Assembly (NCBI RefSeq): GCF_036365525.1 | Contig: NC_090404.1 | Coordinates: 11,312,550-11,376,549 of the forward strand | Source: Heterodontus francisci | Lineage: Eukaryota | Direction of reading: 5' to 3' | Length of the DNA: 64,000 nucleotides | Part shown: positions 9,108-64,000 of the stretch, piece by piece | How positions within the stretch are numbered: position 1 is the first letter of the stretch | Layout: the number at the start of each line of letters is the position of its first letter | Made by a program: the position numbers and the translations under genes | Notes under the pieces: model-generated | Database searches by the model: none | What the model was told of the DNA's origin: nothing | The model's input: the letters and a program-made list of their open reading frames with translations, nothing else

Positions 9108-9608
9108 TCTCTCAGCCCACAGTAATACATCGCGCTGTCAGACAGCCGCAGGTCGCGGATGGTAAAATTCCCCTCTCTTTTCGAAGTGTCGAGAGATGCA
9201 GAAAATCGAGCCTCCACACTCTCTGCTCTGTAGTTGGGGATGTCGATGAGGAATGTGGGGCCTTTATCCCGGTCCTGACGGTACAGTTGTAAGGAATAGG
9301 AAGTAGCAGTGGTCGAATAGCTGTAATTAATGGTCAGCGAGTCTCCTTCAAACTGCATCACTGTAACCGGCCCCTGTGAGACCGAGTCTGCACCACTAAC
9401 ACCTGCAGAAATTTAGAAATACAGAACTTTAAGGTTCTGTTATCATTTAAATTCTAAGTATAATCATAAGGCAACTGAATACATTTTAAATCGAAATCGC
9501 AATTAAAAGGCGAATGATGCCTGAAAGAGGAAGATTGTGTAACTTGTAAACTTTACCCGTTAAGAGAGCTGCAGCTGTGAGGAACGAATACAAAGCAACA
9601 AGCAACAT
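9108..9608 (-). CDS. TCR alpha/delta-like V gene segment V1, copy 1: open frame but lacks Cys23 and Trp41
   Basis: Leader exon 9608-9557 (MLLVALYSFLTAAALLT G|gtaaag), GT-AG intron, V exon 9402-9108: GVSGADSVSQGPVTVMQFEGDSLTINYSYSTTATSYSLQLYRQ...DLRLSDSAMYYCGLRD. Followed by a 23-RSS. Confidence 0.85.
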
Positions 9609-9692
9609 GTTTGCAGAGAGTTGATGGCGGATTTGAACAGAACTGGTGGAATCTGAAATTGTTTCAGTCAAGAGTTGGGAAGACGTTCATTC

Positions 9693-9825
9693 ACTTCCGG
9701 TCTCTCTACCGATTGGTTCATTCCTGAAACAGTCAATAGATGACGGCCAATCAGTTCAAGATCTTTTGTTCTCAAAGTTATCCAATCAGCTCACGGGTTC
9801 TTTGCTCTCCAATTTCATGACGTCA
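9693..9825 (-). promoter_or_regulatory. Candidate V1 promoter: ETS site, four CCAAT boxes and a palindromic CRE
   Basis: acttccgg 9693-9700; ATTGG/CCAAT at 9712, 9747, 9782 and 9809; TGACGTCA at 9818-9825, 210 bp upstream of the ATG. Confidence 0.65.
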
Positions 9826-10053
9826 GAGCGGGAAGCGGAAAATGAGTGAAATTGTTCCCCTGACAATAGGGAACTGGACGAGAATTAAACTCAGTGTTGG
9901 CCTTTAACAGTTTTGGTCAGTCTGTGACTGACACAGCATCTGCAATACACAAATGTGTCATTCGGCCAAACTGGTCTTTCATTTGGTTCCCGTCCAACTA
10001 TCTGTTAACAATGCAGGTCCCAGATATGATTCAGTGTGAGTAGGTCCTTTTAT

Positions 10054-10526
10054 GGTTTTAGTATGGACTGATTGCCCCTCTGGAACAGTGTGGGGTTCAG
10101 TGCAAAGTGCTGCACGGCAGAGTCAGAAACAAGTGCCTGGCAACTTTTAACGGAACATTTTTCTTTCCTTTTACCAAAACTGCAGAGAATCGATCCGGGA
10201 AATCGTGCGACATCTTCCTGCCCCATGCTGTATTTCCTCAGTAAATATCTCGGAGCTTCAGCGGGATACTAGATGTACCAGAAGAGGTAGGGAGTGTTCC
10301 TTGATGTGGAGTAACTGCAGTTCACTATTGTAGTCGGTCCTTCTTGAACGGTTAATTCAGGTGCAGTCTGGGACACGAAGTCTCTTCCATTCGTTCCTGG
10401 AGCATAAACACACAAGGTGTCAAAGTTTTATGAGTAATTATAACCCATGGAACACACACTGACCAGTTAATGACAGACTCACCGGGCAGCAAGACTATTA
10501 TTATCACTAAGGAACATGGAGAGCAT
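10054..10526 (-). pseudogene. TCR alpha-like V pseudogene V2 with 23-RSS
   Basis: Frameshifted leader (..LVIIIVLLP G|gtgagt). Exon 10396-10093 reads GTNGRDFVSQTAPELTVQEGPTTIVNCSYSTSRNTPYLFWYI*YPAEAPRYLL..., with frameshifts and YYC decayed to QHF. RSS CACACTG-23-ACTAAAACC at 10092-10054. Confidence 0.9.
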
Positions 10527-10759
10527 CCGGTGTCTGGTTTAGAGTCCAACGGAAAATAACATTATACTATAATTGTGTTGAACTTTCGAGTCTGATATTG
10601 GAGAATAAACTCAGATAATGGGGAGAGTTCATTTGACAGGATTGGCTGCTCTCTCAGAACTGACAATAGATGTGCGCCAAACAGTGTGAGCTGTGGTCCA
10701 GTTACTCATGTCTCCCAACAAAACAAACCCTATCCTTGCCAAGCTGTGTGAGTGAGTCT

Positions 10760-11120
10760 TTCCCTCTTTCTTTCTCTTTCTCTCTCTCTCTCTCTCGTTC
10801 TTTTTCTCTTTCTCTCTCTTTGGTTCGATGGCTCGGCGTCACTCAATATGTTTAACTCGGCCTCTGTTGCTCTTTGCCTCTCGATGTGCGTGTCCCTCTG
10901 ACTATCTGTGTGTTTGTGTGTGAGTGTGTATTTGTGTGTGTGTCCAGTTCTCACTCACTTTGTTTAACTCGGCGTCTTTCTGTCTCCATCTCTCTCTCCG
11001 TGTCTCACTTTATATGTCTCTCTTTTCAACTCGGCCTCACTCTGTCTGTTCAGCTCGCTGCCTCTCTCAATCCCCCTTTCTCTCTCACACGCTCTCTGTA
11101 TCTCCCCTCTCTCCCTCAGT
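10760..11120. repeat. (CT)n/(GT)n low-complexity tract
   Basis: Dinucleotide runs. Confidence 0.8.
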
Positions 11121-11340
11121 AACATGTGAAGCGGAAAATAATAGAAATCAGTCCCAATCCTTGTCATCACTGTCACAGCCATTACTAGTCACAGTCTAAG
11201 TACCCTGAGGGACATGATTAAGTGGATGTAACTCTGCACTGAAGTGCACTTAAAATGTCACCTGACAGATCTACACAACAACAGGACATGTACTTGCAGA
11301 AATTGATTCTATGAATCATCCCTGAAATTTGAAGGTCATT

Positions 11341-11512
11341 CACTGTGGGTCTCAGGAACCAGTAATACACGGCGCTGTCTGTGGCCTTGCAGCTTTCATG
11401 GACAAGGGAAATGTCCCTTGTGTTCGATTGACATTCCCACGAATGTGTTCAAAGCCAGGAGCCATATCGTTATAGCCAGAACTCTCGATTCCGAGCAGAT
11501 AGTGAGGGGCTT
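11341..11512 (-). pseudogene. 3' half of TCR V pseudogene V3, truncated by a LINE/SINE tail
   Basis: APHYLLGIESSGYNDMAPGFEHIRGNVNRTQGTFPLSM.../DSAVYYWFLRP followed by CACAGTG (11347-11341); nonamer decayed. Confidence 0.75.
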
Positions 11513-11630
11513 GGTGTGGATAGTGCGTGTCACGGGCAAGGTTAGCATTTATTGCCCATTCCTAATTGCCCTTGACCAGGTACTGGTGAGCTGCCTTCTT
11601 TAAGCACTGTAGTTCGTGTGCTCCAGTTGG
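11513..11630 (-). mobile_element. 3' tail of the LINE family seen at 3684-6660, or of its partner SINE
   Basis: Reverse complement caagggcaattaggaatgggcaataaatgc matches 6585-6615. Confidence 0.75.
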
Positions 11631-11892
11631 ACCCATAGTGCTAGGATTTTCCGTCCCAGTTCTCTCTGTTATCCTGTTTCGAGTCAAGAAATGAGAAATA
11701 GCGCCAGCAGAGGGCGTGCCAGTGACTGTAACACATATGCATTGGATTGTTCCCTGGCCCTCAATGAAAGTATAAGAGATACTGACCTTCATACCCAGCG
11801 AAAAAATATCACCAGTTGCATGTGAGGATCATCCCAAAGTAAATCAGTTTTCCAGTAATATTCCTGATCCACCGAGTGCAGAAAGGAAGAAA

Positions 11893-12325
11893 ATGCATTG
11901 AATGAAATTGCAACTTTCACTTTGTTGATATTAGGTGAGTGTTTTGTGCAGAAAAGTGTTCGGCGTTGGAACATTTTTATCGTTTCTCTTGTATATCGGT
12001 AGCTATCGGCGGAGAGAATGTGATCCACCAACCACAGCAGATGTTTACATAAGAGGGAGGAGAATCGATTGAAATCCAGTGCAGTGCAACCACCAGCGGC
12101 ACCGACAGCATCCACTCGTACAGAGAGCTACAGAACCGTGGTCCCAGATTCAGGATATCTGCTATTAGCGGCAACGCCATTGATGGGCGGTTCAGACTCT
12201 TCATTGAGCCAACAAGATATTATAACATTCTCGGTACTGACAACACCGCTTTATCTGACACTGGAGTGTTTTACTGTGCAGTGAGGCACTGTGAGACAAA
12301 GACTGAGCACTCCAATACAATATCT
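11893..12325 (+). pseudogene. TCR alpha-like V pseudogene V4 with 23-RSS
   Basis: Broken leader ending ..TFTLLIL G|gtgagt (11935). Exon ~12003-12286: GENVIHQPQQMFT*EGGESIEIQCSATTSGTDSIHSYRELQNRGPRF...ALSDTGVFYCAVR. RSS CACTGTG(12287)-23-ACAATATCT(12325). Confidence 0.9.
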
Positions 12326-12763
12326 GCTGCAGTTCCCGCTCAGACCATCTCCACACATCTACTTTTCTGTGTTGTCTGCTTTATGGGTGGATTTCCACAG
12401 GCTTCATCCATCCGATAAAGAAGGGGTTATTCAGACTGTCCTGAATGTGTTGTTTCCTTTGTGAGGTACAGTTCCACAGACTCCATTCATTCGGTTAGAA
12501 AAGGATTTTCCTGGATTCGAACACTCAGCGCCAGGTCTGACCCTTTAGAGAGTCACTATCACAAAGGAACAGGATACTCCTGAATTCTCCCCATAAGAAT
12601 GATGGGCACTTGCTGATATTCAAACAACTGACATGTCCAGATTTGAACCGCTGGCAAAGGGAGCAGCGGATCAACAAGTTACCTCCTGACATCGGATGAG
12701 CAATATCCAGTTCCAGCCAATAGAAGAGCAGCAAACACATGTGACTGAGGCTTTAACTGGACG

Positions 12764-12945
12764 TCACTGAGTTGAAGATGCCGACAGTTCAATGTCTTCG
12801 CTCAGTTCGTGATCTTCTGCTGTGAACTGTGTGCCATTTTCTTATTGACATTTCAATTACAAGTATGTATTACTCGGTACCAGCGAATCTACTGCCCATC
12901 ATTCTGGCGCTGCTCACATGTGGTCTGTAGTCTGGAAAACGCTCT
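12764..12945 (-). pseudogene. Possible highly decayed V relic
   Basis: One frame gives TCEQRQNDGQ*IRWYR...LNCRHLQLSD after a pyrimidine-rich AG; no YYC and no RSS. Confidence 0.3.
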
Positions 12946-13279
12946 GTTGGAGCAGGACAACAGATCCTCGCCCCACTGTACTGCCGATCTAATAACAAAC
13001 AGGGAACAGCGGCAGCAATCTCTAAACCAGGGCAGGCAAGGAAGGTCAGAGAGACAGAGGGAAAACTGAAGCTATTGACGGGTTTGACCCAGTTTGAGCT
13101 ACCTCAAGATTCTGTGCGACCCCAGAAATTGCGCAGTGACGCTCACATGAACTCAGTGTTGATTGAGTGGAAAGGGAGTTGGTTGGATGCCAGAATTCTG
13201 TTGCCAGGCAGCTCCTGCTCACTGTTCAAGTGATTGGGAACAAATAACTTGCGAGGGAAATGAAAAGATGGAAATATAG

Positions 13280-13720
13280 GATCATACAGCATCGAATGAT
13301 GCCATTCGGCCCATCATACTGCACAGGCTCTTTGAAAGAGCTATCACCTTAGTCTTACTCTCCATGCTCTTTCTACACACTGCACAGCCCCGCATTTTTC
13401 TCCGTTTGATAACACATACACTTCCTCCTTTGAAAATTACTACTGACTCTCCTTCCTCCATCCTTTCAGGCAGTGCATCCCAAATCATGAAAATCGCACT
13501 GTCAAAAATAAATCTCCTCTCCTCGGTCATTTTGTCAATTCCTGTAAATCTGTATCATTGTGAGGTCAAACTTCCTGTCATTGGAAACTGTTACACGCAA
13601 TCTACTCTATCAAAAACCCATATTTTAAACTCACAATTAAATCTTCCTTAGCCTTTGATATAAGGAGAACAATTGCAGCGTCCTGAACCTCTCACAAGTC
13701 CCTCATCCCTGGTACAAGTC
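13280..13720 (-). mobile_element. Old CR1 3' fragment
   Basis: IWDALPERMEEGESVVIFK resembles the CR1 ORF2 C-terminus (WNALP..VVEA..FK); CR1-type tail atgggccgaatggc. Confidence 0.7.
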
Positions 13721-14419
13721 TATTACATCTCCCCTGCATCTTGGCAAGGCTATGAAACCCTCGAAGTAGCAGGGATTGAAATAACTTCTATCATTCGTTA
13801 TTTCTCCTTAAAATTGGTTACAAGGATTCACGGATTCTTAAAATTGGCTTTGTAATAATGTGAGTATGATTCATATTCTTAAAAATAATAGTCCTTGATC
13901 TGATAGTTTAAGTTAAGTGGATATTAGGACCCTGCGGCAGCCCACACGGCGGTGCTGAAAGGTCGATTAAACCATTAGCCATGTTTGCGTGTGCGGCTCT
14001 GCTCCCGAGGTCCCCCTTTGCCCTGAGCAGACCTTTCCCGTCTCCCTGCCAGTTTTCCTTTGACAGGTTTTATTTGATCAGATTGTATTGCTGGCTCAGA
14101 GACATTTTATACACATTGAACAGATTTCACAAGGCAGTAGCTGTGATCTTTAAAACAAGTCCCAAGCACAGAGTTCCTCCAATGTCCATTGTCCTTCTGA
14201 GTGTCTCTTCATGCTCTGTCACTGCAACTGGAAACGGAATATTACAGACCTGGAAATCAATCATTAGTGAATTCAAACAGAATTTTAACTACAAACCACA
14301 GAAGGAAAGGGTGCGGGAAGCATTTGTTTAAATGACAGGGAGAGTTTATTCTTTATGTATATTGTGTATCTCTGCCTGGATATTGACAATGCCTGGATAT
14401 TGACAACTGTCTCATATTG

Positions 14420-14665
14420 GACTGGGGGAAGATGCCGGGTCTGAGGCTCCGTCCTTCAGATCAGATGTTTAACTGAGGCCCCGCCAGTATGGTCAGGGAG
14501 ATGTTAAAGAATCCCCAGCAATATTGGAATAAGAGCGGGGAGGAGGGACTCTCCCGGGCCCACATTCCACCCTCAACAAACACCACTCAATAAAAACACA
14601 TGGAGCGACCTCCCAGCTCATTACTGTGGGTGAAAGGAGGGCGGCAGCTTCTACTGACAGAACAA
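14420..14665 (+). mobile_element. Decayed DeuSINE (SacSINE1/AmnSINE1-like) fragment
   Basis: ccgtccttcagatcagatgtttaactgaggcccc...ttaaagaatccc...ccctcaacaaacaccac resembles the Deu core as I recall it; not aligned computationally. Confidence 0.55.
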
Positions 14666-14850
14666 CTCCCCCAGCCCCACCCCCTGTACATCAGACTAAT
14701 GTGGGAGGGGATTTCACATCGGGATCACAACCCCAATGAAGCGACAGAAAACTGCAGGTTCCCTCTTTAAACCTGTCGCTTATTCACACAACACACAGCC
14801 AGAGACCCGGGAACCGTGTGGCCCATCAATCATCTCCGGGACACTGCCCT

Positions 14851-14950
14851 CTGCAAATCAGTTCGACCCCTGAAGTATTTCAGTCCAGCTCTGAGGTCCA
14901 GTCTCCCAGAGCAGTCCAGGGCTGCAGTCTCCAGCTCCCCGTCATATAAA
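14851..14950 (+). promoter_or_regulatory. Candidate promoter of the VNAR-like V: octamer-like CTGCAAAT and TATA box
   Basis: ctgcaaat at 14851-14858 (one mismatch to ATGCAAAT); catataaa at 14943-14950, about 25 bp before the ATG. Confidence 0.45.
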
Positions 14951-14974
14951 CCATCAGCTCCAGGCAGCAGAACG

Positions 14975-15490
14975 ATGGGAATCCTCCTTGTTTTCACCCT
15001 GTGTGTCTGTTTACCCCGTGAGTACCGATCAAACAAACCGACATTGTGTGGATTTAATATAAAGCTGCCCGAGTCCATCCGCATTACAGACACTGTCCCG
15101 GCTTTTAGCTCGTTATGTTTTTTGGCTTTGATGACCCATTAAACTCTCGCTGTTTAATTTCCAGGCTCTTTCAGTCAGTCAGTGACGCAGACCCCGGCAG
15201 CGGTGAGCAGGAAGGAGTGTCAGTCTCTCACCATCACCTGTGTTTATAATGGTGGTTATTGGGATTATACTTCCCGAAATGGCCATTTCTTCAGACAAAC
15301 CCAGACCGGGACAAAGTAGGAGCAGATCTCCGGTGGAGGCCGATTTGATGTGTCGGTGAATAAGGGAGAAGAAACATTTTCTTCGGAAATTCAGGATGTG
15401 AGAGTTGATGACACCACCATCTATTACTGTCAAGCTGAATACTGGTACAACACACAGTGATGGGCCTCAGCTTCCCACGGTACAAGATCT
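14975..15490 (+). pseudogene. VNAR-like (NAR-TCR-type) V gene segment with one in-frame stop, plus 22-bp-spacer RSS
   Basis: Leader 14975-15017 (MGILLVFTLCVCLP|gtgagt). Exon 15165-15452: SFSQSVTQTPAAVSRKECQSLTITCVYNGGYWDYTSRNGHFFRQTQTGTK*EQISGGGRFDVSVNKGEETFSSEIQDVRVDDTTIYYCQAEYWYN. VNAR-type deletion of CDR2, extra FR1 Cys (15218), TAG at 15317-15319. RSS CACAGTG(15453)-22-ACAAGATCT(15490). Confidence 0.88.
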
Positions 15491-15814
15491 CTCACTGCAG
15501 ATTATAACAGAAACAAATGAAAAAGCGGAGTTAATCTGCCGTTAAACCACACAGTTCCACCTCGCACCGTCTCCCTCACAGTCCAGTTTATAATGAAACT
15601 GGATTATTGCCATTAACATCTTGAGTCTTCTAAATGCCGAGTGTGTGCGGATGGTGATGTCATTCCCGGGATTGGTGTCAGTGAATGGAGGTTTGGAATG
15701 ACTGATCCCAGTTACAAATCCCTAACACCAGATGGGATCCTGTTCTAACAACTGGAACCGGGAAGCACATTCCCCGCCATTAAACTAATGTCCCCACATC
15801 TCACCAAGTACTGG

Positions 15815-15885
15815 GGGATTTGTGTTAACTTGAAACATTTTGTTCAGTTGGGGAGGCCACAGTGGGAGAGACCAGAGAAAACACC
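15815..15885 (+). other. D segment (15843-15857, ttcagttggggaggc) flanked by 12-RSS on both sides
   Basis: 5' side GGGATTTGT-12-CATTTTG (damaged heptamer); 3' side CACAGTG-12-GAAAACACC. Lies between the V and the J. Confidence 0.8.
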
Positions 15886-16208
15886 TCAGTATATTTTTGA
15901 GAAATTCCCCGGGCCCTGATCCTGAATTGAAGGGTTGATGTTATTCTCGCTCTAATCTGGTTTAATGTAATTATAACTTCCTCCTTTCTGTTATCTTTTT
16001 CTGTCTTTTTTCTCTCTTTATATGAAGCGCCGAGCTCCGGCCCATGTTCCTGGGCCATTTTACTAAGAGCTCAGAGTCTCACAAAGAACAGTTTGATCCC
16101 AATGAAGAATGTGAAACATGGAATATTGTTTATTGAAATAAAATCCCTGGAATAATTGGGCAGCGCCGACAGTCTGGTGATGTGTGACCGACAGAATGAG
16201 GTGTTGGT

Positions 16209-16300
16209 TGTTCTTGTACCGGGGTGACTGAGAGCGGTGTCACTGTGTTACGAGACTGGATACGTGGATGGATCCAGGATGGTGGTGACTGTCACAGAAG
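16209..16300 (+). other. J segment (16248-16300) with 5' 23-RSS and splice donor
   Basis: TGTTCTTGT-23-CACTGTG, then YETGYVDGSRMVVTVTE G|gtaagt, resembling an IgNAR-type xDGxGTVVTV J motif. Confidence 0.85.
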
Positions 16301-16349
16301 GTAAGTGACTCCAAACGCCGATGTGTTACAGACTTTTCTAACCTTTTTT

Positions 16350-16485
16350 CCAGTTCTGATGAAAGTTCACAGACCTGAAACGTTAACTTTGCATTTCTGT
16401 CCACAGATGCTGCCTGACCTGCTGAATACTACCAGCATTCTTTTGCTTTTACTTCAGATTTCCAGCATCTGCATAATTTTGCTTT
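16350..16485 (+). mobile_element. Short interspersed repeat, probably a Penelope-like terminal fragment
   Basis: ctgatgaaag..gacctgaaacgttaac..cagatgctgcctgacctgctga..tcagatttccagcatctgc; a second diverged copy lies at 16830-17055. Family assignment is from memory. Confidence 0.6.
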
Positions 16486-16829
16486 TAATTAACATTTCAG
16501 GTAGTGTGATCTGTATAATCCTGGCAGAGATCAACTTTTCCAGACAGACCCTGCGGGATAATTCCTGGGGTTTTACTCGCTAAAGCAATAGATACAATAT
16601 AAGTGACATGGACATGTTCCCATTGCGAGGAGCGTTGATACAGAGAGAATCCAACAGGAGGGAGATTGTTAAAGATGTGTGTGAGAGGACAGAGTGTGAT
16701 CCAGGATCTTCACTCAGCCTCCGCACTGAACAACTTCTCTGTAATTTCAACCTCCGTTTTCTCTCCTCTCTCTCCCTCCTTTAAGCTCACTGCCCTCTGT
16801 TTCTCCCCAAATCTATCTCCTGACATGTA

Positions 16830-17055
16830 AACTCTCCAGGCCATATTTCCACCCAATCCCAGACCTTCCCCGCTCCCCTTTCTCCCTTACTCTGGACTCG
16901 CTTTAAACCTGTTACATCTCTGACCTTTATCCAGTTCTGAAGAAAGGCCACTCACTTGAAATGTTAACTCTCTTTCTCTCTCCAGATTTGCTGCCAGACC
17001 TGCTGAGGATTTCCAGCATTTTCTATTTGCATTTCAGATTTCCAACATCTGCAGT
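16830..17055 (+). mobile_element. Second copy of the same Penelope-like terminal repeat
   Basis: Aligns by eye with 16350-16485. Confidence 0.6.
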
Positions 17056-17403
17056 GAATTCAATTGCTTGAAGGATCATCTCCGGGTCGATGCCATTTGA
17101 CCCGGCTCCCCAGGGAAAGAGGCTTCACTCAGGAGACTGCCACATGGCAGAGGGTCCATTGCAGACTGATTCAGTTTGGACTCTCCCATAACTGGGGGAC
17201 AGGTTGTGAGACACAGAAAACTGCTACCTGGAAGATGACTCACTCTGGGTTGGGTGGAGCGTGGTTTGAGTGACAGACCTCATGCTATATCAGGACTGGT
17301 CTGAGCAATTGCTCCCTCTTTTGCTCCTGGAATAGACAGATACAGTCAGGTTGGTGAAGGTCCCTGGTTTTAAACTCTATCTCGCTCAACAGGTATTTTA
17401 AAT

Positions 17404-17910
17404 GTGTTGTGGGACTGTATGAGTTTGAGTGTGTCACTGAACTTTGTTGTGAAACTGTAAATTTGTGTGTCTGAGCTGTGTTGTGGGACTGTGAGTTTGT
17501 GTCTCTGAACTGTGCTGTGAAACTGTAAATTTGTGTGTCTCTGAATTGTGTTGTGGGACTGTGTGAGTTTGTGTCTCTGAACTGTATTGTGAAACTGTGT
17601 GAGTTTGTGTGTCTCTGAGCTGTGTTGTGGGACTGTGTGAGTTTGTGTCTCTGAACCGTGTTGTGGGTCTGTGTAAATTTGTGTGTCTGAACTGTGTTTT
17701 GGGACTGTGTGAGTTTGTGTCTCTGAACCGTGTTGTGGGTCTGTGTAAATTTGTGTGTGTCTGAACCGTGTTTTGGGACTGTGTGAGTTTGTATGTGTCT
17801 GATCCGTATTGTGGGACTGTGTGAGTTTGTGTGTCACTGAACCGTGTTGTGGGACTGTGAGTTTGTGTGTGTCTGAACCGTGTTGTGGAACTGTGTGAGT
17901 TTGTGTGTCT
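17404..17910. repeat. TG-rich minisatellite, units mostly 36 or 38 bp, about 14 copies, RSS-like
   Basis: Unit tgagtttgt-(gt)gtctctgaaccgtgttgtgg-gactgtg. Confidence 0.9.
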
Positions 17911-17919
17911 GGACCCTGT

Positions 17920-18300
17920 TGCCCACTCCCGCGAGGCTGGACATGTATGGACCCCCTCGCAATCCCTCCACCCGCAATTTCTCGCCAGTCTTGTTACCCT
18001 CTATGAACAGACACCCCCCTCCCCCCGACCCCGCCGTATAATTACCCTCCTCAAGTGACTTGGTGCAATCGTGCAGACCGGGTAGTTGTGACCTGGCCGC
18101 GCGTTTCGCATCTCTCCCCTGTTTTTACATCACGCGAGTAAAACCCGGGAGAGATGGCAAGCAGGATCCCGGTTCATTCTCACTTGTACAACACCATGGC
18201 ACTGAGTCCAAATCTCCCCCAGTGAGAGGTACCGAGACACAGAAACCAGAGATCCAGGGAGAAGGACAGAACAGAGTGAGAGAAATAAACGGAGCGGGAG
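17920..18300 (+). promoter_or_regulatory. CpG-enriched patch, candidate promoter or first exon of the zinc-finger gene
   Basis: Local CpG cluster (cccgcgagg, ggccgcgcgtttcgc, cacgcgag) in otherwise CpG-poor DNA, 4 kb upstream of the ZNF ORF; donor-like AG|gtaaga near 18615. Confidence 0.35.
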
Positions 18301-20216
18301 GAACCAGTGATAGCAACTGAGGGCAGAGATAGCGAGAAATTGACAGAGAGAGGGAATGTCTGAAAGAGATGGGGGCAGAGAGAGAGAAAAGATGAAGAAC
18401 TTTTAGAAATATAGAGGTACAGAGATATAAAGAAAGAAAGTGGAGAGGTTGAGATATGACCAGCCAGGGACCTGCAGAGATAAAGCTGCAGGAAGAGATG
18501 GAGAGGGTGAAATATAGACGTTATATTGGGTGCTCTGGAGCAGCGGTTCTCAACCTTTGTGTCTCAGAGGGCCCCCCTCCCCCTCGTTGTTATAACTCCA
18601 AACCTTTCCTGTAGGTAAGATGAGAACACAGAGAAACAGATATTTTAATTAATATTCCCCTCTGGAAGAAGCTCTTCTCCAAGGATTCCTCTTGCCAAAC
18701 CCTCTCTCTCTCTGCATCGATATGTTGCAGCTTCTATAAAATTTCCTCAGAGAAAAGAAAAATGAAACTTTGGTGCAAAGAAAAGACTTAAAATTAAAAA
18801 AAACACAGCGAGAGCCCAGAATTCCTTTTCTCTCTGTCACTCACTAACATGGGCATTCTCAGCAACACCATTTACCCATTCCCCTCTAGAAAGAGGGAAC
18901 AGATTTAAAATGCAAGAGGTGTTATTAGGTGCTGAGATCTTTCCCATTGTCATGTTAATCCAGGTACCATATCTGCTTTGACCAGAGACATTCCAAGGAG
19001 CTGCTTTTTGATGATCTGTGAACTTATTTCTATAAGACCATTGTTGAGAATAATTGCTGCATCTTTCAGCAAATCAACAGGAGGACAGTGACATGACCAA
19101 GCCCCAGTCAGTCCAGAAGCTGCTAAACTCTCTCTAAAACTGCCATTAAAGTGATCATTCCTTATCATTGTCCCAGGACTTATCATTGCAAATCAGACCT
19201 TCGGGATGGGTGTGAGAAGTGGGGGCTTCCCTACAGGCTGGTATCTGGGCAGTTCCAAAACACTGGAGACCCCCAGAGCCTGTCTCTCTTTCTGTTTAAC
19301 CTGTTATTTCAATCAGTTTCTCTCCCTCTATTTCTCTGTCTCACCATCTGTTTATGCCTCATTGTAAAAACACAAACACTGGTGATTCCCCATGCCTCTC
19401 CTGTTTACTGCCCCTGTCCGCACTCAGCCCATGTTTGGTGTTTTGTACATTCAATGTTACAGTGGGTAGAAGCTGCTGATTCCTTTTTAAATCGCTGTCC
19501 CAGGATTTATTGTCCATCTGGAAGGTGGGAGCTGGGCAATGATGATAGTGTAAAACCCCAAATCCTGTGTCTCTTCATCTCCCTGCCCCTCTGTTTTGCT
19601 GCCTCGTCCCATTTTTCCCTCTATCGTTCCTTCCTCTTTCTCTCTCTCCCATTTCTCACATTCAGAGAGAAATATAGTGAGAGAGACAGACAGAGAAATC
19701 CACAATCCGAAACTCAGTAACATGAGTTAAACTGGCTGCTGCACATTGCATTTAAACCTCAAAATTCATCGCACTGCCTAAAACTTGAGTATTAGTCAGG
19801 AATTATAACTGACCTTGTGAAAGCAGTCCTGACCTGGTGAAATTAGACAATTAATTAATTTTTGAAACATGATCATGGTTGCACAGTCTGAAATGCTGAA
19901 CACAGCTGTACACAGCAAGATCCCACAAGCAGCAATGTGATAATATTCAGATAGATGGGAGCCACTCCTTCCCCATCCTCTCCCACTTATATTAACGACA
20001 AGTCACATCCCTGTCTGACATTTACATTATTAATTAAAAGTTCAAGTAGCGAAAATGAGAGTAGGCTGAGGAGAAATAGAGAGGGTAAGAGAGAGACATG
20101 GAGAAATCCACAATCAAAACCTCAGTGACATGAATGGTTCATTTAACCCTCCGATTTCATTGCACTGTCTAAAGCACAAGCAATAATCTGAATTAATAAC
20201 AAACCTTTCCACCATT

Positions 20217-22088: not shown

Positions 22089-22454
22089 AATGCAATATCC
22101 TTTTCCAGGGGATTAGATGGGGAGGATCTGCAAATGACAAACTCAAACCAAACATATCGTTAAGAGTTACTCGATTCATCAGGACCTGAATATCATCATC
22201 CTTTGAATGTGGAAGGAGAAATGTTTGTTCTGTCTTTGGGAAAAGATTTCAAACATCAGTGTGACTGGAAAAGCACCGAGACACACACACCCGAGTGAGT
22301 GTCCCAATGCACTGACTGTGAAAGAGTTTTAACCAGTTACAGAGCCTGAAACACATCACCCCATTCACGGTGGGGAGAAACTGTACACGGGTCTGTGTGT
22401 GGCCGAGACTTCAACTGATCATCCAACCAAGAGAGACACAAGGACACTCGCACC

Positions 22455-31208: not shown

Positions 31209-31219
31209 TAATGTCAGTC

Positions 31220-54357: not shown

Positions 54358-54459
54358 TGTTGAATGTGTTGTCAGCTGGAGTAGCAGGAAGGAAAGGATA
54401 ATAGTTGAGAGGTGTTTTTGGACAGAAAGGCTGTTTCCAGTGCGTCCCATGTGGCTCAG

Positions 54460-57400
54460 TACTACATCAAGATCAAGAAGGGAAGGGGGGAGAATAGGAG
54501 AGCGATAGTGATAGGAGATTCAATGGTTAGAGGAACAGACAGGAGATTCTGTGGTCGCAAACGAGACTCCCGGATGGTATGTTGCCTCCCGGGTGCCAGG
54601 GTCAGGGATGTCTCGGATCGAGTCTATGGGATTCTTAAGGGGGAGGGGGAGCAGCCAGAAGTCGTGGTACACATTGGTACCAATGACATAGCTAGGAAAA
54701 GGGATCAGGACCTGAAAAGTGAATATAGGGAGTTAGGTTGGAAGCTAAAAGGCAGGACGAGCAGGATAGTAATCTCAGGATTGATACCGGTGCCACGTGC
54801 TAGTGAGGCTAGAAACAGAGAGCAAGTGCACCTGAACACGTGGCTGCAGAGCTGGTGTAAGAGGGAGGGCTTCAGATATGTGTATCATTGGGATACCTTC
54901 TGGGGAAGGAGGGACTTGTACAACAAGGACGGGTTGCATCTGAACTGGAGGGGCACCAATATCCTGGGCGGGAGGTTTGCTAGCGCTCTTCGGGAGGGTT
55001 TAAACTAGTTTGGCAGGGGGATGGGAACCGGAGCTACGGATCAGTGGATGGGGTAGCTGTTGAACAGGCAGATACAGAGTGCAGAGAGTCTGTGAGGAAG
55101 GGTAGAGAGTTGACAGGGCAAAGTTGCAGCCAGTATGATGGGTTGAAGTGTGTCTATTCTAATGCAAGAAGTGTCAGGAATAAGGATGATGAACTTAGAG
55201 CATGGATCAGTACTTGGAGCTACGATGTTGTGGCCATTACAGAGACTGGGATATCACAGGGGCAGGAATGGATGCTGGATGTTCCGGGGTTTAGATGTTT
55301 CAAAAGGAATAGGGAGGGAGGTAAAAGAGGTGGGGGAGTGGCATTGCTAATCAGGGATAGTATCACAGCTGCAGAAAGGGAGGTCGTCGAGGAGGGTTTG
55401 TCTACTGAGTCATTATGGGTGGAATTCAGAAACAGGAAAGGAGCAGTCACTTTATTGGGAGTTTTCTATAGACCCCCCAATAGCAACAGAGACACGGAGG
55501 AACAGATTGGGAGGTAGACATTGGAAAGGTGCAGAAGTAACACGGTTGTTGTCATGGGTGACTTCAACTTCCCTAAAAGTGATTGGAACCTCCTTAGTGA
55601 AAATTGTTTGGATGGAGCAGTTTTTGTCAGGTGTGTCCAGGAAGGTTTCCTGACTCAATATGTAGATAGACCAACTAGAGGGGAGGCTATGTTGGATTTG
55701 GTGCTTGGCAACGAACCAGGCCAGGTGGCAGATCTCTCGGTGGGAGAGCATTTCGGTGATAGTGATCACAACTCCCTGACCTTTACTATAGTCATGGAGA
55801 GGCATAGGAGCAGATGGGATGGGAAAATATTTAATTGGGGGAGGGGAAATTACAGTGCTATTAGGCAGGAACTCGGAACAGATGTTCTCAGGGAAATGCA
55901 CGACAGAAATGTGGAGGTTGTTTAGGGAGCACTTGCTGCGACTGCTGGATAGGTTTGTCCCGATGAGGCAAGGAAGGGATGGTAGGGTGAAGGAACCTTG
56001 GATGACAAGAGATGTGGAACAGCTAGTCAAGAGGAAGAAGGAAGCTTACTTAAGGTTGAGGAAGCAAGGATCAGACAGGGCTCTTGAAGGTTACAAGGTA
56101 ACCAGGAAGGAACTGAAGAATGGACTTAGGAGAGCTAGAAGGGGACATGAAAAAGTCTTGGTGGGTAGGATTAAGGAAAATCCCAAGGCGTTCTACACTT
56201 ATGTGAGGAACAAGAGAATGGCCAGAGTGAGGGTAGGGCCGATCAGGGATAGTGGAGGGAACTTGTGCCTGGAGTCGGAGGAGGTAGGGGAGGTCCTTAA
56301 TGAATACTTTGCTTCAGTATTCACCAGTGAGAGGGACCTGGTCGTTTGTGAGGACAGCGTGGAACAGGCTGATATGCTCGAACAGGTTGATGTTAAGAGG
56401 GAGGACGTGCTGGAAATTTTGAAAGACATGAGGACAGATAAGTCCCCGGGGCCAGACGGGACATACCCAAGGATATTAAGGGAAGCGAGGGAAGAGATTG
56501 CCGCGCCTTTGGCGATGATCTTTGCATCCTCACTGTCCACTGGAGTAGTACCAGATGATTGGAGGGTGGCAAATGTTCAAGAAAGGGAATAGGGATAACC
56601 CTGGGAATTATAGACCAGTCAGTCTTACGTCGTTAGTGGGCAAATTATTGCAGAGGATTCTGAGAGACAGGATTTATGATTATTTGGAAAAGCATAGTTT
56701 GATTAGAGACAGTCAGCATGGCTTTGTGAGGGGCAGGTCATGCCTCACAAGCCTTATTGAATTCTTTGAAGATGTGACAAAACACTTTGATGAAGGAAGA
56801 GCAGTGGATGTGGTGTATATGGATTTTAGCAAGGCGTTTGATAAGGTTCCCCATGGTAGGCTCATTCAGAAAGTAAGGAGGCATGGGATACAGGGAAAGT
56901 TGACTGTCTGGATACAGAATTGGCTGGTCCATAGAAGACAGAGGGTGGTAGTAGATGGAAAGTATTCAGCCTGGAGCTCGGTGACCAGTGGTGTTCCGCA
57001 GGGATCTGTTCTGGGACCTCTGCTCTTTGTGATTTTTATAAATGACTTGGATGAGGAAGTGGAAGGCTGGGTTCGCAAGTTTGCCGATGACACGAAGGTT
57101 GCTGGAGTTGTGGATAGTGTGGAGGGCTGTTGTAGGTTGCAATGGGACATTGACAGGATGCAGAGCTGGGCTGAGAAGTGACAGATGGAGTTCAACCTGG
57201 AAAAGTGTGAAGTGATTCATTTTGGAAGGTCGAATTTGAATGCAGAATACAGGCTTAAAAACAGGATTCTTGGTAGTGTGGAGGAACAGAGGGATCTTGG
57301 GGTCCATGTCCATAAATCCCTCACAGTTGCCACCCAATTTGATAAGGCTGTTAAGAAAGCGTATGGTGTGTTGGCTTTCATTAACAGGGGGGTTGAGTTT

Positions 57401-57985
57401 AAGAGCCACGAGGTTATGCTGCAGCTCTATAAAGCCCTGGTTAGACCACACTTGGAATATTGTGTTCAGTGCTGGTCGCCTCATTATAGGAAGGATGTGG
57501 AAGCTTTAGAGAAGGTGCAGAGGAGATTTACCAGGATGCTGCCTGGACTGGAGGGCATGTCTTATGAAGAAAGGTTGAGGGAGCTAAGGCTTTTCTCATT
57601 GGAGCGAAGAAGGATGAGAGGTGACTTGATAGAAGGGTACAAGATGATGAGAGGCACAGATAGAGTGGATAGCCAGAGACATTTTCTCAAGGTGGAAACG
57701 GCTATCACCAGGGCACATAATTTTAAGGTGATTGGAGGAATGTTTAGGGGAGATGTCAGAGGTAGGTTCTTTACACAGAGAGTGCTGGGTGTGTGGAATG
57801 CACTGCCAGCGGTGGTAGAAGACGCAGATACATTAAGGACATTCAAGCGACTCTTGGATAGGTACATGGATGATAGTGGTATGAAGGGTATGTAGGTAGT
57901 TTGATCGTAGAGTAGGTTAAAGGTTCGGCACAACATCGTGGGCCGAGGTGCCTGTACTGTGCTGTATTGTTCTATGTTCTATGTT
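54460..57985 (+). mobile_element. Long CR1 LINE (esterase ORF1 + disrupted ORF2), copy 2
   Basis: Duplicate of 27683-31208. Confidence 0.95.
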
Positions 57986-57996
57986 TAATGTCAGTC

Positions 57997-58927
57997 GGAG
58001 GCAGAGCAAGAGAGAGAGGAGCATGGCGGGAGCAGAGAGAGAGAGGAGCATGGTGGGATCAGAGAGAGAGAGGAGCATGGTGGGAGCAGAAGAGAGAGGA
58101 GCACAATGGGAGCAGAGGTTTAAAAAGTGCGTCAAAAGAACAGAGGTGGAGACAGAGTAAGAGAGAGGAGTACAGCAGGAGTGGAGAGAGAGGAGCACGG
58201 CGGGAGCGGAGAGAGAGGAGCAGGGAGGAAGCAAAGAGAGAGAGGGGGCAGCACGGTGGGAATGGAGAGAGAGGAGCAGGGCAGGAGTGGAGAGAGAGAG
58301 GAGCACGGTGGAAGTGGAGGGAGAGAGAGGAGCAAGGCAGGAACAGAGAGAGAAAGAGAGGAGCACTGCGGGAATGGAGAGACAGAGGAGCAGGGCGGGA
58401 GTGGAGAGAGAGAGAGGAGCATCGCAGGCATGGATAGAGAGAGGAGCAGGGCGGGAGTGGAGAGAGAGAGGAGCACAGCGGGCGTGGAGAGAGAGAGGAG
58501 CACAGCGGGAGTGGAGAGAGAGGAGCAGGGCAGGAGTGGAGAGAGAGATAGAAAAGCAGGGCGGGGGCAGAAGGAGTGAGAGAGGAGCACTGCCGGAGCG
58601 GAGAGACAGAGAGGAGCACGGTGTGAATGGAGAGAGAGAGAGGAGCATGGCAGGCATGGATAGAGAGAGGAGCACTGCAGAAGCGGAGAGAGAGAGAGAG
58701 AGAGGAGCATGGTGGGAGTGGAGAGAGAGAGAGAGGAGCACGGCGAGTGTGGAGAGACAGAGGAGCAGAGCGGGAGCAGAGAGAGAGTGAGGACTACAGT
58801 AGGAGCGGAGAGAGAGAGAGAGGAGCATGGCAGGAGTGGAGAGAGAGGAGAGGAGAAAGTTTGATCTCTAATTGATCTGAGAGACAGTTTGATCTCGAAT
58901 TGACCTGAGAGACAGTTTGATCTCTAA
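57997..58927. repeat. GA-rich satellite plus short 28-bp minisatellite, copy 2
   Basis: Duplicate of 31220-32150. Confidence 0.92.
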
Positions 58928-59806
58928 ACGAACTGTACAACAGTTTTCTTTTTACTTGAGGGAGTGGAGAGAGAGGAGCAGAGTGGGAGCGGAGAGAGAG
59001 TGAGAGAGAGGGGGGAGCAGAGTGGGAGCGGAGAGAGAGCGAGAGGAGCAGGGCAACTTTCAAAGTTACAAAGACAGCGTTGAATGTCGATGAAAAATTT
59101 CAGTTTATTTCACTCTCTTCACTAATCAGACTGAGGTGGTTGACAGGGTTGGGGACGGGGCGAGGACGAGGTGGTGAGGTTTCGGTGGGCATCGGTTTTC
59201 ATTAACCTTCCGTTGGGAGCACCGAGGAGAAGATTTCCTCTGGTTTCTCTGTATTAGCGATATCCCAACCTGAATGGGAAATGTAATCTGCTGGCTAGTT
59301 TAGTAGAATAGCTGCTCATTATCTTAGAATGTGTTCACTTTGCCACTAGCAACAGCGAGCAGAAGAAATCTACCCCACCGAGTGGAAACTCCAATGTTGC
59401 AAGAGAATGAAATTAATGCTGTCGGCGAGCCATCACCCACCCACAGAAATCAAACACACACTCAGAAAAGGGACGGATTTGAGCCCTTTGAGTATAATTA
59501 CAACCTTCAGCAAAGTTAGTCATTTCTGCGCTGGTTTAAGTAGCGTGAAACAGAAAAATAATACATCGGCATTGAAGTGGAACCTGAACTGGAACACACA
59601 CTATACACGGTCAGTTGGCCGATTAAACCTGCGCGGGTTTCTCCTGTTCATCTCTCATTCTGGAATGAGTGAAATCTAAAATCTGTATTCAGTGCTGTTG
59701 GGACCTGTCCTGCGGGAATATTCTATCCGAGTAGTATTTGTCCTATTCAGACATTCACAGGGCGGGTAGTCTGGACACACATGGTTCTATTTACAGAGTT
59801 GTCTGC

Positions 59807-60112
59807 AGTTTTATTTTCTCTTGGGCACAGAACTGTGAAGCTGTTGGTTTCAGAGCACAGTAATACACGGCGCTGTCTGACTGATCCGCCCCACAAACTC
59901 TCAATTGAAACGTGCTCTCCTCTGTGTTCAGCTCGGCTGTAAAACGATGCTTGGTAAAGTCGGCTGAGAACGTGCCTTATTTGGTGAGATGTTTCCCCGA
60001 GCCGGATGGGGAACCTGCCAGCAACAGAATGGATCAGCGACAGTATCTGTTGCTGTAAAACTACAATTCAGCATCACTGTTTCTACTTCCTGCACATTCT
60101 CTTCTTTTCGCT
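59807..60112 (-). pseudogene. V5 pseudogene, copy 2
   Basis: Duplicate of 33030-33335. Confidence 0.85.
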
Positions 60113-60721
60113 CCCACTCTGTTTGTTGCAGTCACTTGATCAGTGAGCAGTAGCAGTTTATCCAAAGGCATCTAGAGATGGAACCATCGCCATTTCCACT
60201 CCATCAGCTCCCAGTGCAGCTGTTGGTGGTGCTGTTCCCTGTTTGGTGTTGGTCGGATCAGTAGTGCAGTGGGGCGGGGATCTGTATTTCTGCTCGGACA
60301 GAACTCCCACACTGCTGAGTTACAGACTCAGGGAGCATCATGCGGAACCGGCTCACACCGCTCATCATCATTATATCACTTCTCAGGAAATATTCTCAAC
60401 AAGTACAGTCAGCAACCCCGGACATCTGCCACAGTTTAGGACTTGAGTCTTATGGCCTCACAGTTCGGAGGAGACTTCATAGTTCTGAAGGTTATTCCTC
60501 TATGGTCGATTAATTGGATGCACCCCCTCTATTCAGTTCAGTTCCAGCCAACTGGAGCGCCCCCTGATTGTGACTCTGACACAGAATGGGAACTTGTTTT
60601 ATATTTGTTTCACTAAGGTTGAAATTTAAGGTGCTCACGAAACGAACACAGATTGGAAGATTATTGCATTAATAATAAACATTATTCCTGTGCTGCACTG
60701 TTAGTTGGACAGCTGTTGATT

Positions 60722-62539
60722 TGTCTGTTTTTGCGCTAACAGGTGAGGTCCCAGAGGACTGGAGAATAGCCAAAGTTGTTCCTTTGTTTAAGAAGGAGAG
60801 CAAGGATAATCCAGGAAATTATAGGACGGTGAGCCTTACGTCAGTGGCAGGGAAATTATCAGAGAGGATTCTTCGGGACAGGATTTACTCCCATTTGGAA
60901 ACAAACGAACTTATTAGCAAGAGGCAGCATGGAGTTGTGAAGGGGAGGTCATGACTCACTAATTTGATTGAGTTTTTTGGGTGGCGCAGTGTTTAGCACC
61001 GCAGCCTCACAGCTCCAGGGACCCGGGTTCGATTCCGGGTACTGCCTGTGTGAAGTTTGCAAGTTCTCCCTGTGTCTGCGTGGGTTTTCTCCGGGTGCTC
61101 CGGTTTCCTCCCACAAGCCAAAAGACTTGCAGGTTGACAGGTAAATTGGCCATTATAAATTGTCACCAGTATAGGTAGGTGGTAGGGAAATATAGGGACA
61201 GGTGGGGATGTTTGTTGGGAATATGGGATTAGTGTAGGATTAGTATAAATGGGTGGTTGATGTTCGGCACAGACTCGGTGGGCTGAAGGGCCTGTTTCAG
61301 TGCTGTATCTCTAATCTAATCTAAAGTGACAAAGATGATTGATGAAGGAAGAGCAGAGGATGTTATCTATATGGACTTCATTAAGCCTTCGACAAGGTCC
61401 CTCATGGCAGACTAGTCCAAAAGGCGAAGTCACATGGGATCAGAGCTGTGCTGGCAAGATGGATGCAGAACTGGCTCGGTCATAGAAGACATACGGGAGC
61501 AGTGGAAGGGTGCTTTTCTGAATGGAGGGCTGTGACTAGTGGTGTTCCGCAGGGATCAGTGCTGGGATCTTTGCTCTTTGTAGTATATATAAATGATTTG
61601 GAGGAAAATGTAGCTGGTCTGATTAGTAAGTTTGTGGACGACACAAAGGTTGGTGGAGTTGCGGATAGTGATGAGGATTGTCAGAGGATACAACAGGATA
61701 TAGATCGGTTGGAGACTTGGGCAGAGAAATGGCAGATGGAGTTTAATCCGGCCAAATGTGAGGTTATGCATTTTGGAATGTCCAATGCAGGTGGGAAGTA
61801 TACAGTAAATGGCAGAACCCTTAGGAGTATTGACAGGCAGAGAGATCTGGGCGCACAGGTTACTGAAAGCGGAAACACAGGTGGATAAGGTAGTCAAGAA
61901 GGCATTCGGCATGCTTGCCTTCATCGGTCGGGGCACAGAGTATAAAAATTGGCAAGTCATGCTGCAGCTGTACATAACCTTAGTTAGGCCACACTTAGAA
62001 TATTGCGTGCAATTCTGGTCACCACACTACCAGAAGGACGTGGAGGCTTTGGAGAGGGTACAGAAGAGGTTTACCAGGATGTTGCCTGGTCTGGAGGGCA
62101 TTCGCTATGAGGAGAGTTTGGATAAACTCGGATTGATTTCACTGGAACGACGGAGGTGGAGGGCGACATGATTGAGGTTTACAAAGTTATGAGCGGCATG
62201 GACAGAGTGGATAGTCAGAAGCCTTTTCCCAGGGTGGAATCGTCGGTTACGAGGGGACATAGGTTTAAGGTGAAAGGGGCAAAGTTTAGAGGGGATGTGC
62301 GAGGCAAGTTCTTTATGCAGAAATTGTTGAGTGCCTGGAACTTGCTGCGGGGGGAGGTAGTGGAAGCAGGTACAATAGCGACGTTTAAGAGGCATCTTGA
62401 CAAATACATGAATAGGATGGGAATAGAGGGATATGGGTCCCCGGAAGAGCAGAAGGTTTTTGTTTGGGCAGGCATCACGATCAGCGCAGGCTTGGAGGGT
62501 CGAATGGCCTGTTTCTGTGCTGTACTTTTCTTTGTTCTA
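60722..62539 (+). mobile_element. 5'-truncated CR1 with nested HE1 SINE (60979-61323), copy 2
   Basis: Duplicate of 33945-35762. Confidence 0.92.
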
Positions 62540-62622
62540 ACACTCTCCTGTAATAAATACTGACACTCCTCTTTTCTCCCCACTCTGCCCGCTGTTCCGT
62601 TCACCTTGTCACATTGAGGCAG

Positions 62623-63162
62623 TGTTTTTGTACGAGGCTCCCTCTGGGTCCTGTCACTGTGTCTCTCAGCCCGCAGTAATACATCGTGCTGTCAGACAGC
62701 CGCAGGTCGCGGATGGTGAAATTCCCCTCACTTTTCGAAGTGTCGACAGATGCAGAAAATCGATCCTCCACACTCTCTGCTCTGTAGTTGGGGATGCAGA
62801 TGAGGAATGTGGGGCCTTTATCCCGGTCCTGACGGTACAGTTGTAAGGAATAGGAAGTAGCAGTGGTCGAATAGCTGTAATTAATGGTCAGCGAGTCTCC
62901 TTCAAACTGCATCACTGTAACCGGCCCCTGTGAGACCGAGACTGCACCACTAACACCTGCAGAAATTTAGAAATACAGAACTTTAAGGTTCTGTTATCAT
63001 TTAAATTCTAACTAAAATCATCAGGCAACTGAATACATTTTAAATCGAAATCACAATTAAAAGGCGAATGATGCCTGAAAGAGGAAGATTGTGTAACTTG
63101 TAAACTTTACCCGTTAAGAGAGCTGCAGCTGTGAGGAACGAATACAAAGCAACAAGCAACAT
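62623..63162 (-). CDS. TCR alpha/delta-like V gene V1, copy 3, with 23-RSS (62661-62623)
   Basis: Duplicate of copy 2; one substitution noticed at 62941, in FR1 (D codon changed to V). Confidence 0.85.
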
Positions 63163-63246
63163 GTTTGCAGAGAGTTGATGGCGGATTTGAACAGAACTGG
63201 TGGAATCTGAAATTGTTTCAGTCAAGAGTTGGGAAGACGTTCATTC

Positions 63247-63379
63247 ACTTCCGGTCTCTCTACCGATTGGTTCATTCCTGAAACAGTCAATAGATGACGG
63301 CCAATCAGTTCAAGATCTTTTGTTCTCAAAGTTATCCAATCAGCTCACGGGTTCTTTGCTCTCCAATTTCATGACGTCA
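63247..63379 (-). promoter_or_regulatory. Candidate V1 promoter (ETS/CCAAT/CRE), copy 3
   Basis: Duplicate of 9693-9825. Confidence 0.65.
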
Positions 63380-63607
63380 GAGCGGGAAGCGGAAAATGAG
63401 TGAAATTGTTCCCCTGACAATAGGGAACTGGACGAGAATTAAACTCAGTGTTGGCCTTTAACAGTTTTGGTCAGTCTGTGACTGACACAGCATCTGCAAT
63501 ACACAAATGTGTCATTCGGCCAAACTGGTCTTTCATTTGGTTCCCGTCCAACTATCTGTTAACAATGCAGGTCCCAGATATGATTCAGTGTGAGTAGGTC
63601 CTTTTAT

Positions 63608-63950
63608 GGTTTTAGTATGGACTGATTGCCCCTCTGGAACAGTGTGGGGTTCAGTGCAAAGTGCTGCACGGCAGAGTCAGAAACAAGTGCCTGGCAACTT
63701 TTAACGGAACATTTTTCTTTCCTTTTACCAAAACTGCAGAGAATCGATCCGGGAAATCGTGCGACATCTTCCTGCCCCATGCTGTATTTCCTCAGTAAAT
63801 ATCTCGGAGCTTCAGCGGGATACTAGATGTACCAGAAGAGGTAGGGAGTGTTCCTTGATGTGGAGTAACTGCAGTTCACTATTGTAGTCGGTCCTTCTTG
63901 AACGGTTAATTCAGGTGCAGTCTGGGACACGAAGTCTCTTCCATTCGTTC
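63608..63950 (-). pseudogene. V2 pseudogene, copy 3 (V exon and RSS; leader lies beyond the window)
   Basis: Duplicate of 10054-10396. Confidence 0.88.
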
Positions 63951-64000
63951 CTGTAGCATAAACACACAAGGTGTCAAAGTTTTATGAGTAATTATAACCC

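What the first reader, a model, noticed from the sequence alone, without database searches (positions are those of the whole stretch)
9500..64000. 26,777-bp amplicon co-duplicating an intact zinc-finger gene with a set of dead or aberrant antigen-receptor segments
Seen: an exact period with no net indel, even across long satellites. I noticed only about five substitutions between units (near 13689/40466, 15691/42468, 22369/49146, 36164/62941, 37177/63954). An older paralog occupies 1-9500, so the ZNF+TCR-V unit was duplicated at least twice at different times. The ZNF is the only clearly intact, canonical gene in the unit. Inference: zinc-finger cluster birth-and-death may be carrying TCR V and NAR-TCR segments along, coupling receptor germline copy number to a ZNF array. 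The very high identity also allows a collapsed or falsely duplicated assembly.
Basis: partly seen in the sequence, partly recalled or inferred. Interest (0 to 1): 0.7.

Follow-up and report, generated by a model that had tools for sequence, protein, structure and literature searches.

The report
Recent tandem copy in shark TCR
A 26.8-kb block of a shark's T-cell-receptor region sits as two almost identical copies side by side, likely a real copy made by unequal crossing-over as is usual in immune loci, and the zinc-finger gene inside it is likely a passenger, while the block also holds an intact receptor gene of a family that nurse sharks express.

Summary
The period of 26,777 bp and the five substitutions are confirmed. 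The two copies (A, B) lie in an older array O-A-B-C in a shark TCR alpha/delta V region. B is a hybrid, with C alleles left of a 900-bp identical tract and A alleles right of it, which points to unequal crossing-over. Only three substitutions separate the A and B bodies. There is no assembly gap, and contig depths fit two real copies better than two alleles. RAD reads of two other animals carry B's allele in 237 of 320 and 196 of 313 reads. The duplication is probably real (about 0.8), and the array probably varies between animals. The zinc-finger-driver idea is not supported: five other V-carrying duplications on this chromosome have no zinc-finger gene in the unit. The zinc-finger gene is also not the only intact gene. 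The 'aberrant' V has a leader, splice sites, an open frame and a good RSS. It belongs to the alphaV10 family (Tyr23, Leu41), which nurse shark rearranges and transcribes; the scan found this family before on other DNA. The NAR-TCR cassette and three other V segments are dead. This is an ordinary homology-unit duplication.

The parts
1..8723 (.). 3' end of older paralogous unit O (about 83-92% to A/B; it begins about 9.8 kb before the window)
3..542 (+). 3' part of unit O's zinc-finger ORF (308 aa, 11 fingers, ATG 384 bases before the window)
8724..35506 (.). unit A
35507..62283 (.). unit B, hybrid of C-type start and A-type body
62284..64000 (.). start of unit C (continues to about 86,000 outside the window)
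36277..37176 (.). inferred crossover interval: 900 bp identical in A (9500-10399), B and C; holds the V10 leader and promoter and the RSS of a pseudo-V
9069..9608 (-). TCR alphaV10-family V, copy A: leader, GT-AG intron, open frame, 23-RSS; Tyr23, Leu41, 12-nt in-frame deletion in CDR2/C''
35846..36385 (-). alphaV10-family V, copy B (C-type exon); the gene copy added by the duplication
62623..63162 (-). alphaV10-family V, copy C (one amino acid differs from B)
10086..10403 (-). TCR V pseudogene (stop, frameshift; 23-RSS at 10092); also at 36863-37180 and 63640-63957
12008..12295 (+). TCR V pseudogene (stop at 12050, Trp41 lost, RSS nonamer decayed); also at 38785-39072
14975..16301 (+). dead NAR-TCR V-D-J cassette: stop at 15317, weak RSSs, J without FGXG-type motif, no supporting V-delta downstream; also at 41752-43078
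22455..23549 (+). intact single-exon C2H2 zinc-finger ORF, 364 aa, 12 canonical fingers plus a broken last one; copy B at 49232-50326 has an identical protein
27632..31118 (+). decayed LINE-type retroelement (esterase-like ORF, then endonuclease and reverse-transcriptase pieces; type named from recall)
33059..33300 (-). frameshifted TCR V pseudogene; also at 59836-60077
15645..15740 (.). RAD tag beside a BamHI-type site, covering the A/B difference at 15691; identical in A and C, one base different in B

Best explanation
The 26,777-bp repeat is likely a real, evolutionarily young tandem duplication made by unequal crossing-over between the starts of two older paralogous units (A and C) in a shark TCR alpha/delta V region, and the zinc-finger gene is likely a passenger. 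Shown: B carries C alleles up to 36,276 and A alleles from 37,177, so the exchange falls in a 900-bp tract identical in all three. The array lies where a V-rich stretch meets a zinc-finger-rich stretch, so any copy of the border takes both gene types. The new unit adds one intact zinc-finger ORF, one intact alphaV10-family V and four dead V-bearing elements. Inferred: earlier conversion or crossing-over made A and C nearly identical around the V10 promoter and so provided the substrate; the array still varies between animals; the added V could join the J cluster about 8 Mb away by deletion.
For: Hybrid allele pattern. No N in 264 kb around the repeat; false duplications are most often separated by a gap (PMC9516828, passages). 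Depth fit in one sample, probably the assembled animal: log-residual SD 0.087 and 0.125 for two copies on both chromosomes, 0.096 and 0.156 for one chromosome only, 0.143 and 0.158 for 'A and B are alleles' (runs X1, X4; 10 and 11 contig values). B's allele at 15691 is in 237 of 320 and 196 of 313 RAD reads of two other animals, and only A, B and C match that 201-bp stretch above 93% (34 matches). No zinc-finger cluster in the unit of 5 of 5 other arrays. The zinc-finger start motif has 167 exact hits in the genome, 59 of the first 100 listed on this chromosome. V10 family: 16 of 21 members intact; 21 of 21 nurse-shark alphaV10 cDNA rows seen have Tyr23 and Leu41. A minus-strand J cluster and C exon lie at C34:3.30-3.34 Mb, in the same orientation as this V. 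Homology-unit duplication with collateral pseudogenes is the described mode for cattle TRA/TRD (PMC4289303, passages).
Against: No read spans the junction; contigs cannot. The tool warns that contig depth is no copy number; I used it only between homologous paths of one run, on few values, with three arm extents inferred and one depth obtained by subtraction, and in X4 the three models differ little. All RAD reads start at one place, so PCR copies cannot be removed. X10's 74% also fits one A/B locus plus a variable C (3:1); X11's 63% rejects 50% and 75% only under a plain binomial. Neither animal shows the assembly's own 1:2 ratio. The five control arrays are a chosen sample, older than this one, and two of them are built around IgH clusters. 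The window's V10 clade may be drifting: a 4-residue deletion and more replacement than silent changes (5:2, 8:4, 8:1); family dN/dS is 0.72 with an interval reaching 1 (framework 0.44-1.06; 13 sequences).
Confidence: 0.72

Rival explanations
1. False duplication: A and B are the two alleles of one locus, written in tandem by the assembler through the identical 900-bp tract shared with C.
For: Only 3 differences in 26,777 bp and no indel even in satellites. X10's 74% fits one locus plus a variable C. No spanning read seen.
Against: No gap. The allele model has the worst depth fit in both runs. A/B-specific arms are about two thirds of shared depth, not half (23 and 15 against about 31-33 and 22 on mostly shared contigs). 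X11's 63% fits neither 50% nor 75%.
Confidence: 0.17
2. One reading: turnover of the zinc-finger array drives the duplications and carries TCR V and NAR-TCR segments along, coupling receptor copy number to zinc-finger copy number.
For: All four units O, A, B, C keep an open zinc-finger ORF whose finger number and contact residues differ (11, 12, 12, 13 fingers), while four of five V-bearing elements are dead.
Against: 5 of 5 other V arrays examined lack a zinc-finger cluster in the unit. The crossover lies at the V10 promoter, 12 kb from the zinc-finger gene. The V10 gene is kept open in all four local copies too. A run of 17 zinc-finger motif hits at 2.4-2.8-kb spacing lies at C34:7.70-7.74 Mb, so these genes seem to expand on their own (not fetched).
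Confidence: 0.1
3. Selection on the alphaV10 gene favoured extra copies, and both the zinc-finger gene and the dead segments hitch-hike.
For: V10 is intact in A, B, C and D and in 16 of 21 family members; a neutral simulation expects 7.8 without a stop, P(16 or more) = 0.027. The family is transcribed in nurse shark. The B domain is modelled as a TCR V fold (pLDDT 91, TM 0.89 to a TCR chain).
Against: B's V10 differs from C's by one residue, so it adds little. The local clade shows neutral-looking changes. The model was guided by an alignment with canonical V domains; with only family members pLDDT was 65. No expression data for these copies.
Confidence: 0.12

Closest known systems
Homology-unit duplication in the cattle TRA/TRD locus (PMC4289303; passages read)
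   Same: Blocks of 15-157 kb with several V genes are copied repeatedly; pseudogenes ride along and share lesions between copies; copies differ by later insertions.
   Different: This unit also holds a non-immune zinc-finger gene and a NAR-TCR cassette, is far younger (3 differences), and its crossover can be placed to 900 bp.
Elasmobranch antigen-receptor complex (PMC12227049; section 6 and passages read)
   Same: TCR alpha/delta-type V exons, NAR-TCR V exons and IgH clusters are mixed on one chromosome; here C1 domains lie all through C34:1.5-15 Mb.
   Different: Its main text has no hit for 'zinc' or 'ZNF'; its table S1 was not seen.
Nurse shark TCR alphaV10 family (PMC5931798; passages, section 15 and 21 alphaV10 rows of supplement 3 read)
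   Same: Tyr at Cys23, Leu at Trp41, same framework motifs; a similar leader motif in the primer table; rearranged cDNAs.
   Different: The window's copies lack four residues in CDR2/C''; B and C have an extra Cys there; their own expression is untested. The paper's main text does not mention the missing residues.
NAR-TCR (doubly rearranging TCR delta; seen through passages of PMC6795676 and PMC12227049; the original paper was not held)
   Same: NAR-type V, D and J with RSSs, 86-91% DNA-level kin of 30 or so other cassettes on the chromosome.
   Different: Stop codon in V and no supporting V-delta downstream, unlike cassettes at 8.40 and 3.66 Mb.

Membership tests
True tandem segmental duplication | Contiguous assembly without a gap between copies | tested here: met
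   0 N in 264,000 bases
True tandem segmental duplication | Read depth doubled relative to single copy | tested here: inconclusive
   Two-copy model fits best in both runs, on 10-11 contig values each; no clean single-copy baseline
True tandem segmental duplication | Reads spanning the junction | not testable with these tools
   Only short contigs and 95-base RAD reads were laid
True tandem segmental duplication | Copy-specific variants exist in other individuals at ratios needing more than one locus | tested here: inconclusive
   237 of 320 and 196 of 313; one start position, so overdispersion unknown
Unequal crossing-over between paralogs (definition recalled) | Hybrid unit with an allele switch inside a long identical tract | tested here: met
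   C alleles to 36,276, A alleles from 37,177; 900 identical bases
TRA/TRD V region | V segments with leader and 23-RSS linked to TCR J and C | tested here: met
Shark alphaV10 family | Tyr/Phe23, Leu41 and shared framework with nurse-shark alphaV10 | tested here: met
   (cDNA rows read by eye, not aligned); bamboo-shark protein P0001 66-68% identical with Phe23, Leu41
Shark alphaV10 family | Rearranged and transcribed | not tested
   Shown for nurse shark only; no RNA run was laid here
Canonical IgSF V domain (hallmarks recalled) | Cys23, Trp41, Cys104 | tested here: not met
   Only Cys104 present
Functional NAR-TCR cassette | Open NAR V, D, J and a downstream supporting V-delta | tested here: not met
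   Stop at 15317; no supporting V in the unit
   0 of 5 other arrays

The most novel reading that the evidence does not exclude
The V/zinc-finger border is a live copy-number hot spot: repeated exchange at the alphaV10 promoter changes, from shark to shark, the inherited dose of a short-CDR2, disulfide-free TCR alpha V that is used in T cells, and selection on that V (not on the zinc-finger gene) keeps the array turning over; T cells that use it would delete about 8 Mb holding many zinc-finger genes and IgH clusters.
Probability: 0.15. Interest if true: 0.6.

Novelty: new member of a known kind. Interest (0 to 1): 0.3.

Why it matters
It is a clean, mappable example of how shark antigen-receptor regions grow, and it suggests germline TCR content differs between individuals. 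It also warns that annotation rules requiring Cys23 and Trp41 would wrongly discard a V family that sharks transcribe. The proposed new coupling between zinc-finger arrays and receptor copy number does not hold up, so the duplication itself is ordinary.

Tried and rejected
No RNA holder was listed for 9500-17300; this says nothing on expression, and both read-laying runs went to DNA runs. A direct single-copy depth baseline from C-specific bins failed because coverage there was patchy. Contigs of the sample first looked like a different animal, but 14 of 17 variant letters were C alleles and 2 were D alleles (1 unexplained), i.e. collapsed paralogs. A search for longer V10 proteins (full TCR chains) found none among 282 candidates. 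The profile search of 1.84 billion representatives gave only 1 of the top 150 with the family motif. Paper searches for zinc-finger genes mixed with shark TCR segments found nothing on point, nor did searches for a shark V lacking Cys/Trp. Four key nurse-shark TCR papers and the original NAR-TCR paper were not held, so either point may be in print; table S1 of PMC12227049 was not seen. RAG cutting at the pseudo-V RSS inside the crossover tract was considered and set aside: no coding or signal joint is present, and any V-to-V exchange falls near an RSS. Dating is loose: 3 differences give about 80,000 generations (17,000-234,000) at 7e-10 per generation (PMC10587355, passages), an upper bound from another species' rate.

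Full report
Observation. The window lies at G000:C34:11,312,550-11,376,549 of a 6.0-Gb genome. With 100 kb on each side there is no N in 264 kb. The repeat is the youngest part of an array: O (about -9.8 kb to 8.7 kb, 83-92%), A (8724-35,506), B (35,507-62,283), C (62,284 to about 86,000; 91-99%, other LINE insertions) and the start of D.

How it arose. A three-way alignment shows B equal to C over its first 770 bases (62 differences from A, 1 from C) and equal to A from 37,177 on. Between them lie 900 bases identical in A, B and C. That is the pattern of one unequal crossover between A's start and C's start. A and C differ by about 8% left of the tract, 0.7% for 3 kb right of it and about 6% further on, which suggests earlier homogenisation (inference). 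Only 13689, 15691 and 22369 separate the A and B bodies. At the epaulette-shark rate (PMC10587355, passages) that is at most about 80,000 generations, range 17,000-234,000.

Real or artefact. Four contig sets from one sample, probably the assembled animal, hold the region. Their variant letters are C or D alleles in 16 of 17 cases. The tool warns that such depth is no copy number, so I compared only homologous paths within a run. Two copies on both chromosomes fit best (log-residual SD 0.087 and 0.125), then one chromosome only (0.096, 0.156), then 'A and B are alleles' (0.143, 0.158), on 10 and 11 values. A RAD tag happens to cover 15691; B's base is in 237 of 320 and 196 of 313 reads of two other animals, and no other place in the assembly matches above 93%. 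One locus plus an invariant C would give at most 50%. Against this: all reads start at one place, 74% also fits a variable C, and neither animal matches the assembly's own 1:2 ratio. I put the chance of a real duplication near 0.8 and think the array differs between animals. No junction-spanning read could be examined.

Contents. Each of A and B holds five V-bearing elements and one zinc-finger gene. Three TCR V segments have stops or frameshifts. The NAR-TCR V-D-J cassette has a stop at 15317 and no supporting V-delta after it. The zinc-finger ORF is intact: 364 aa, 12 canonical fingers, with 11 in O and 13 in C. The fifth V has a leader, GT-AG intron, open frame and near-consensus 23-RSS but Tyr for Cys23 and Leu for Trp41.

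That V is not a dead oddity. Of 21 family members examined (4 in this array and the 17 next-best hits), 16 are intact and all 16 have Tyr or Phe at 23 and Leu at 41. A neutral simulation expects 7.8 without a stop (P = 0.027), though dN/dS is only 0.72 with an interval reaching 1 (13 sequences). A bamboo-shark protein shares both changes. All 21 nurse-shark alphaV10 cDNA rows that I saw, of 45 clones in the paper's table, read the same way (PMC5931798 supplement 3, by eye). The B domain models as a TCR V fold when canonical V domains guide the alignment (pLDDT 91), and weakly without them (65). The local copies lack four CDR2/C'' residues and show more replacement than silent changes, so they may be drifting. 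A J cluster and C exon lie about 8 Mb away on the same strand. Earlier notes of this scan had already reached the alphaV10 reading on other DNA; I looked after finding it.

Is the zinc-finger gene the driver? In the 264 kb, V segments without zinc-finger genes lie upstream and zinc-finger genes without V segments lie downstream; the array covers the border. The zinc-finger start motif occurs 167 times in the genome, 59 of the first 100 listed on this chromosome. Five other duplications carrying V segments (near 3.65, 4.14, 8.39, 8.91 and 12.06 Mb; 40-100 kb fetched each) have no zinc-finger cluster in the unit; they were chosen from search hits, and two contain IgH V segments. The V10-plus-neighbour block recurs at many sites. 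The zinc-finger gene is therefore best read as a passenger, although it stays open in all four units.

Comparison and verdict. The event matches the homology-unit duplications described for cattle TRA/TRD (PMC4289303, passages), set in the mixed antigen-receptor complex described for sharks (PMC12227049, section 6 and passages). I found no paper on zinc-finger genes mixed into that complex, but five relevant papers were not held. Verdict: observation confirmed, interpretation partly supported, a new member of a known kind, interest 0.3.

Noticed in passing
L006:6700-7410 (-), supporting V at L006:2777-3067 (-): A NAR-TCR V is fused in frame to a D-like piece: 41 bases from the YYC codons to the 12-RSS against about 430 in the others, with V's RSS and D's 5' RSS gone (1 of 11 cassettes examined). 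It looks germline-joined; the scan noted such genes in other genomes.
   Followed up: partly
L008-L009, window-relative -24,810 to -10,300; also window 6946-7958 and 32076-32150: A 28-bp satellite runs 14.5 kb just before unit O, 1 kb at O's end and under 3 copies in A and B.
   Followed up: no
G000:C34:7,700,373-7,743,905: 17 zinc-finger start motifs spaced 2.4-2.8 kb apart, probably a tandem zinc-finger array (not fetched).
   Followed up: no
L038:1998-2279 (+): A sister V keeps Cys23 but has Leu41, suggesting Trp41 was lost before Cys23.
   Followed up: no
L081-L100 (C34:3.30-3.46 Mb): A minus-strand TCR J cluster with C exon and an inverted second J-C unit, with IgH-like V segments between them.
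   Followed up: partly
L041-L060 (C34:4.14-4.24 and 12.06-12.16 Mb): Arrays of 70-79-kb units at 98-99% identity that carry an IgH-type V and TCR V segments, mostly broken.
   Followed up: partly
window 22150-22454: Decayed finger-like sequence precedes the zinc-finger ATG, and the four local paralogs differ in finger number and contact residues.
   Followed up: no
L061:9253-9543 (-): A supporting V-delta-type segment has Tyr in place of Cys23 with an open frame, present twice in the 8.39-Mb array.
   Followed up: no
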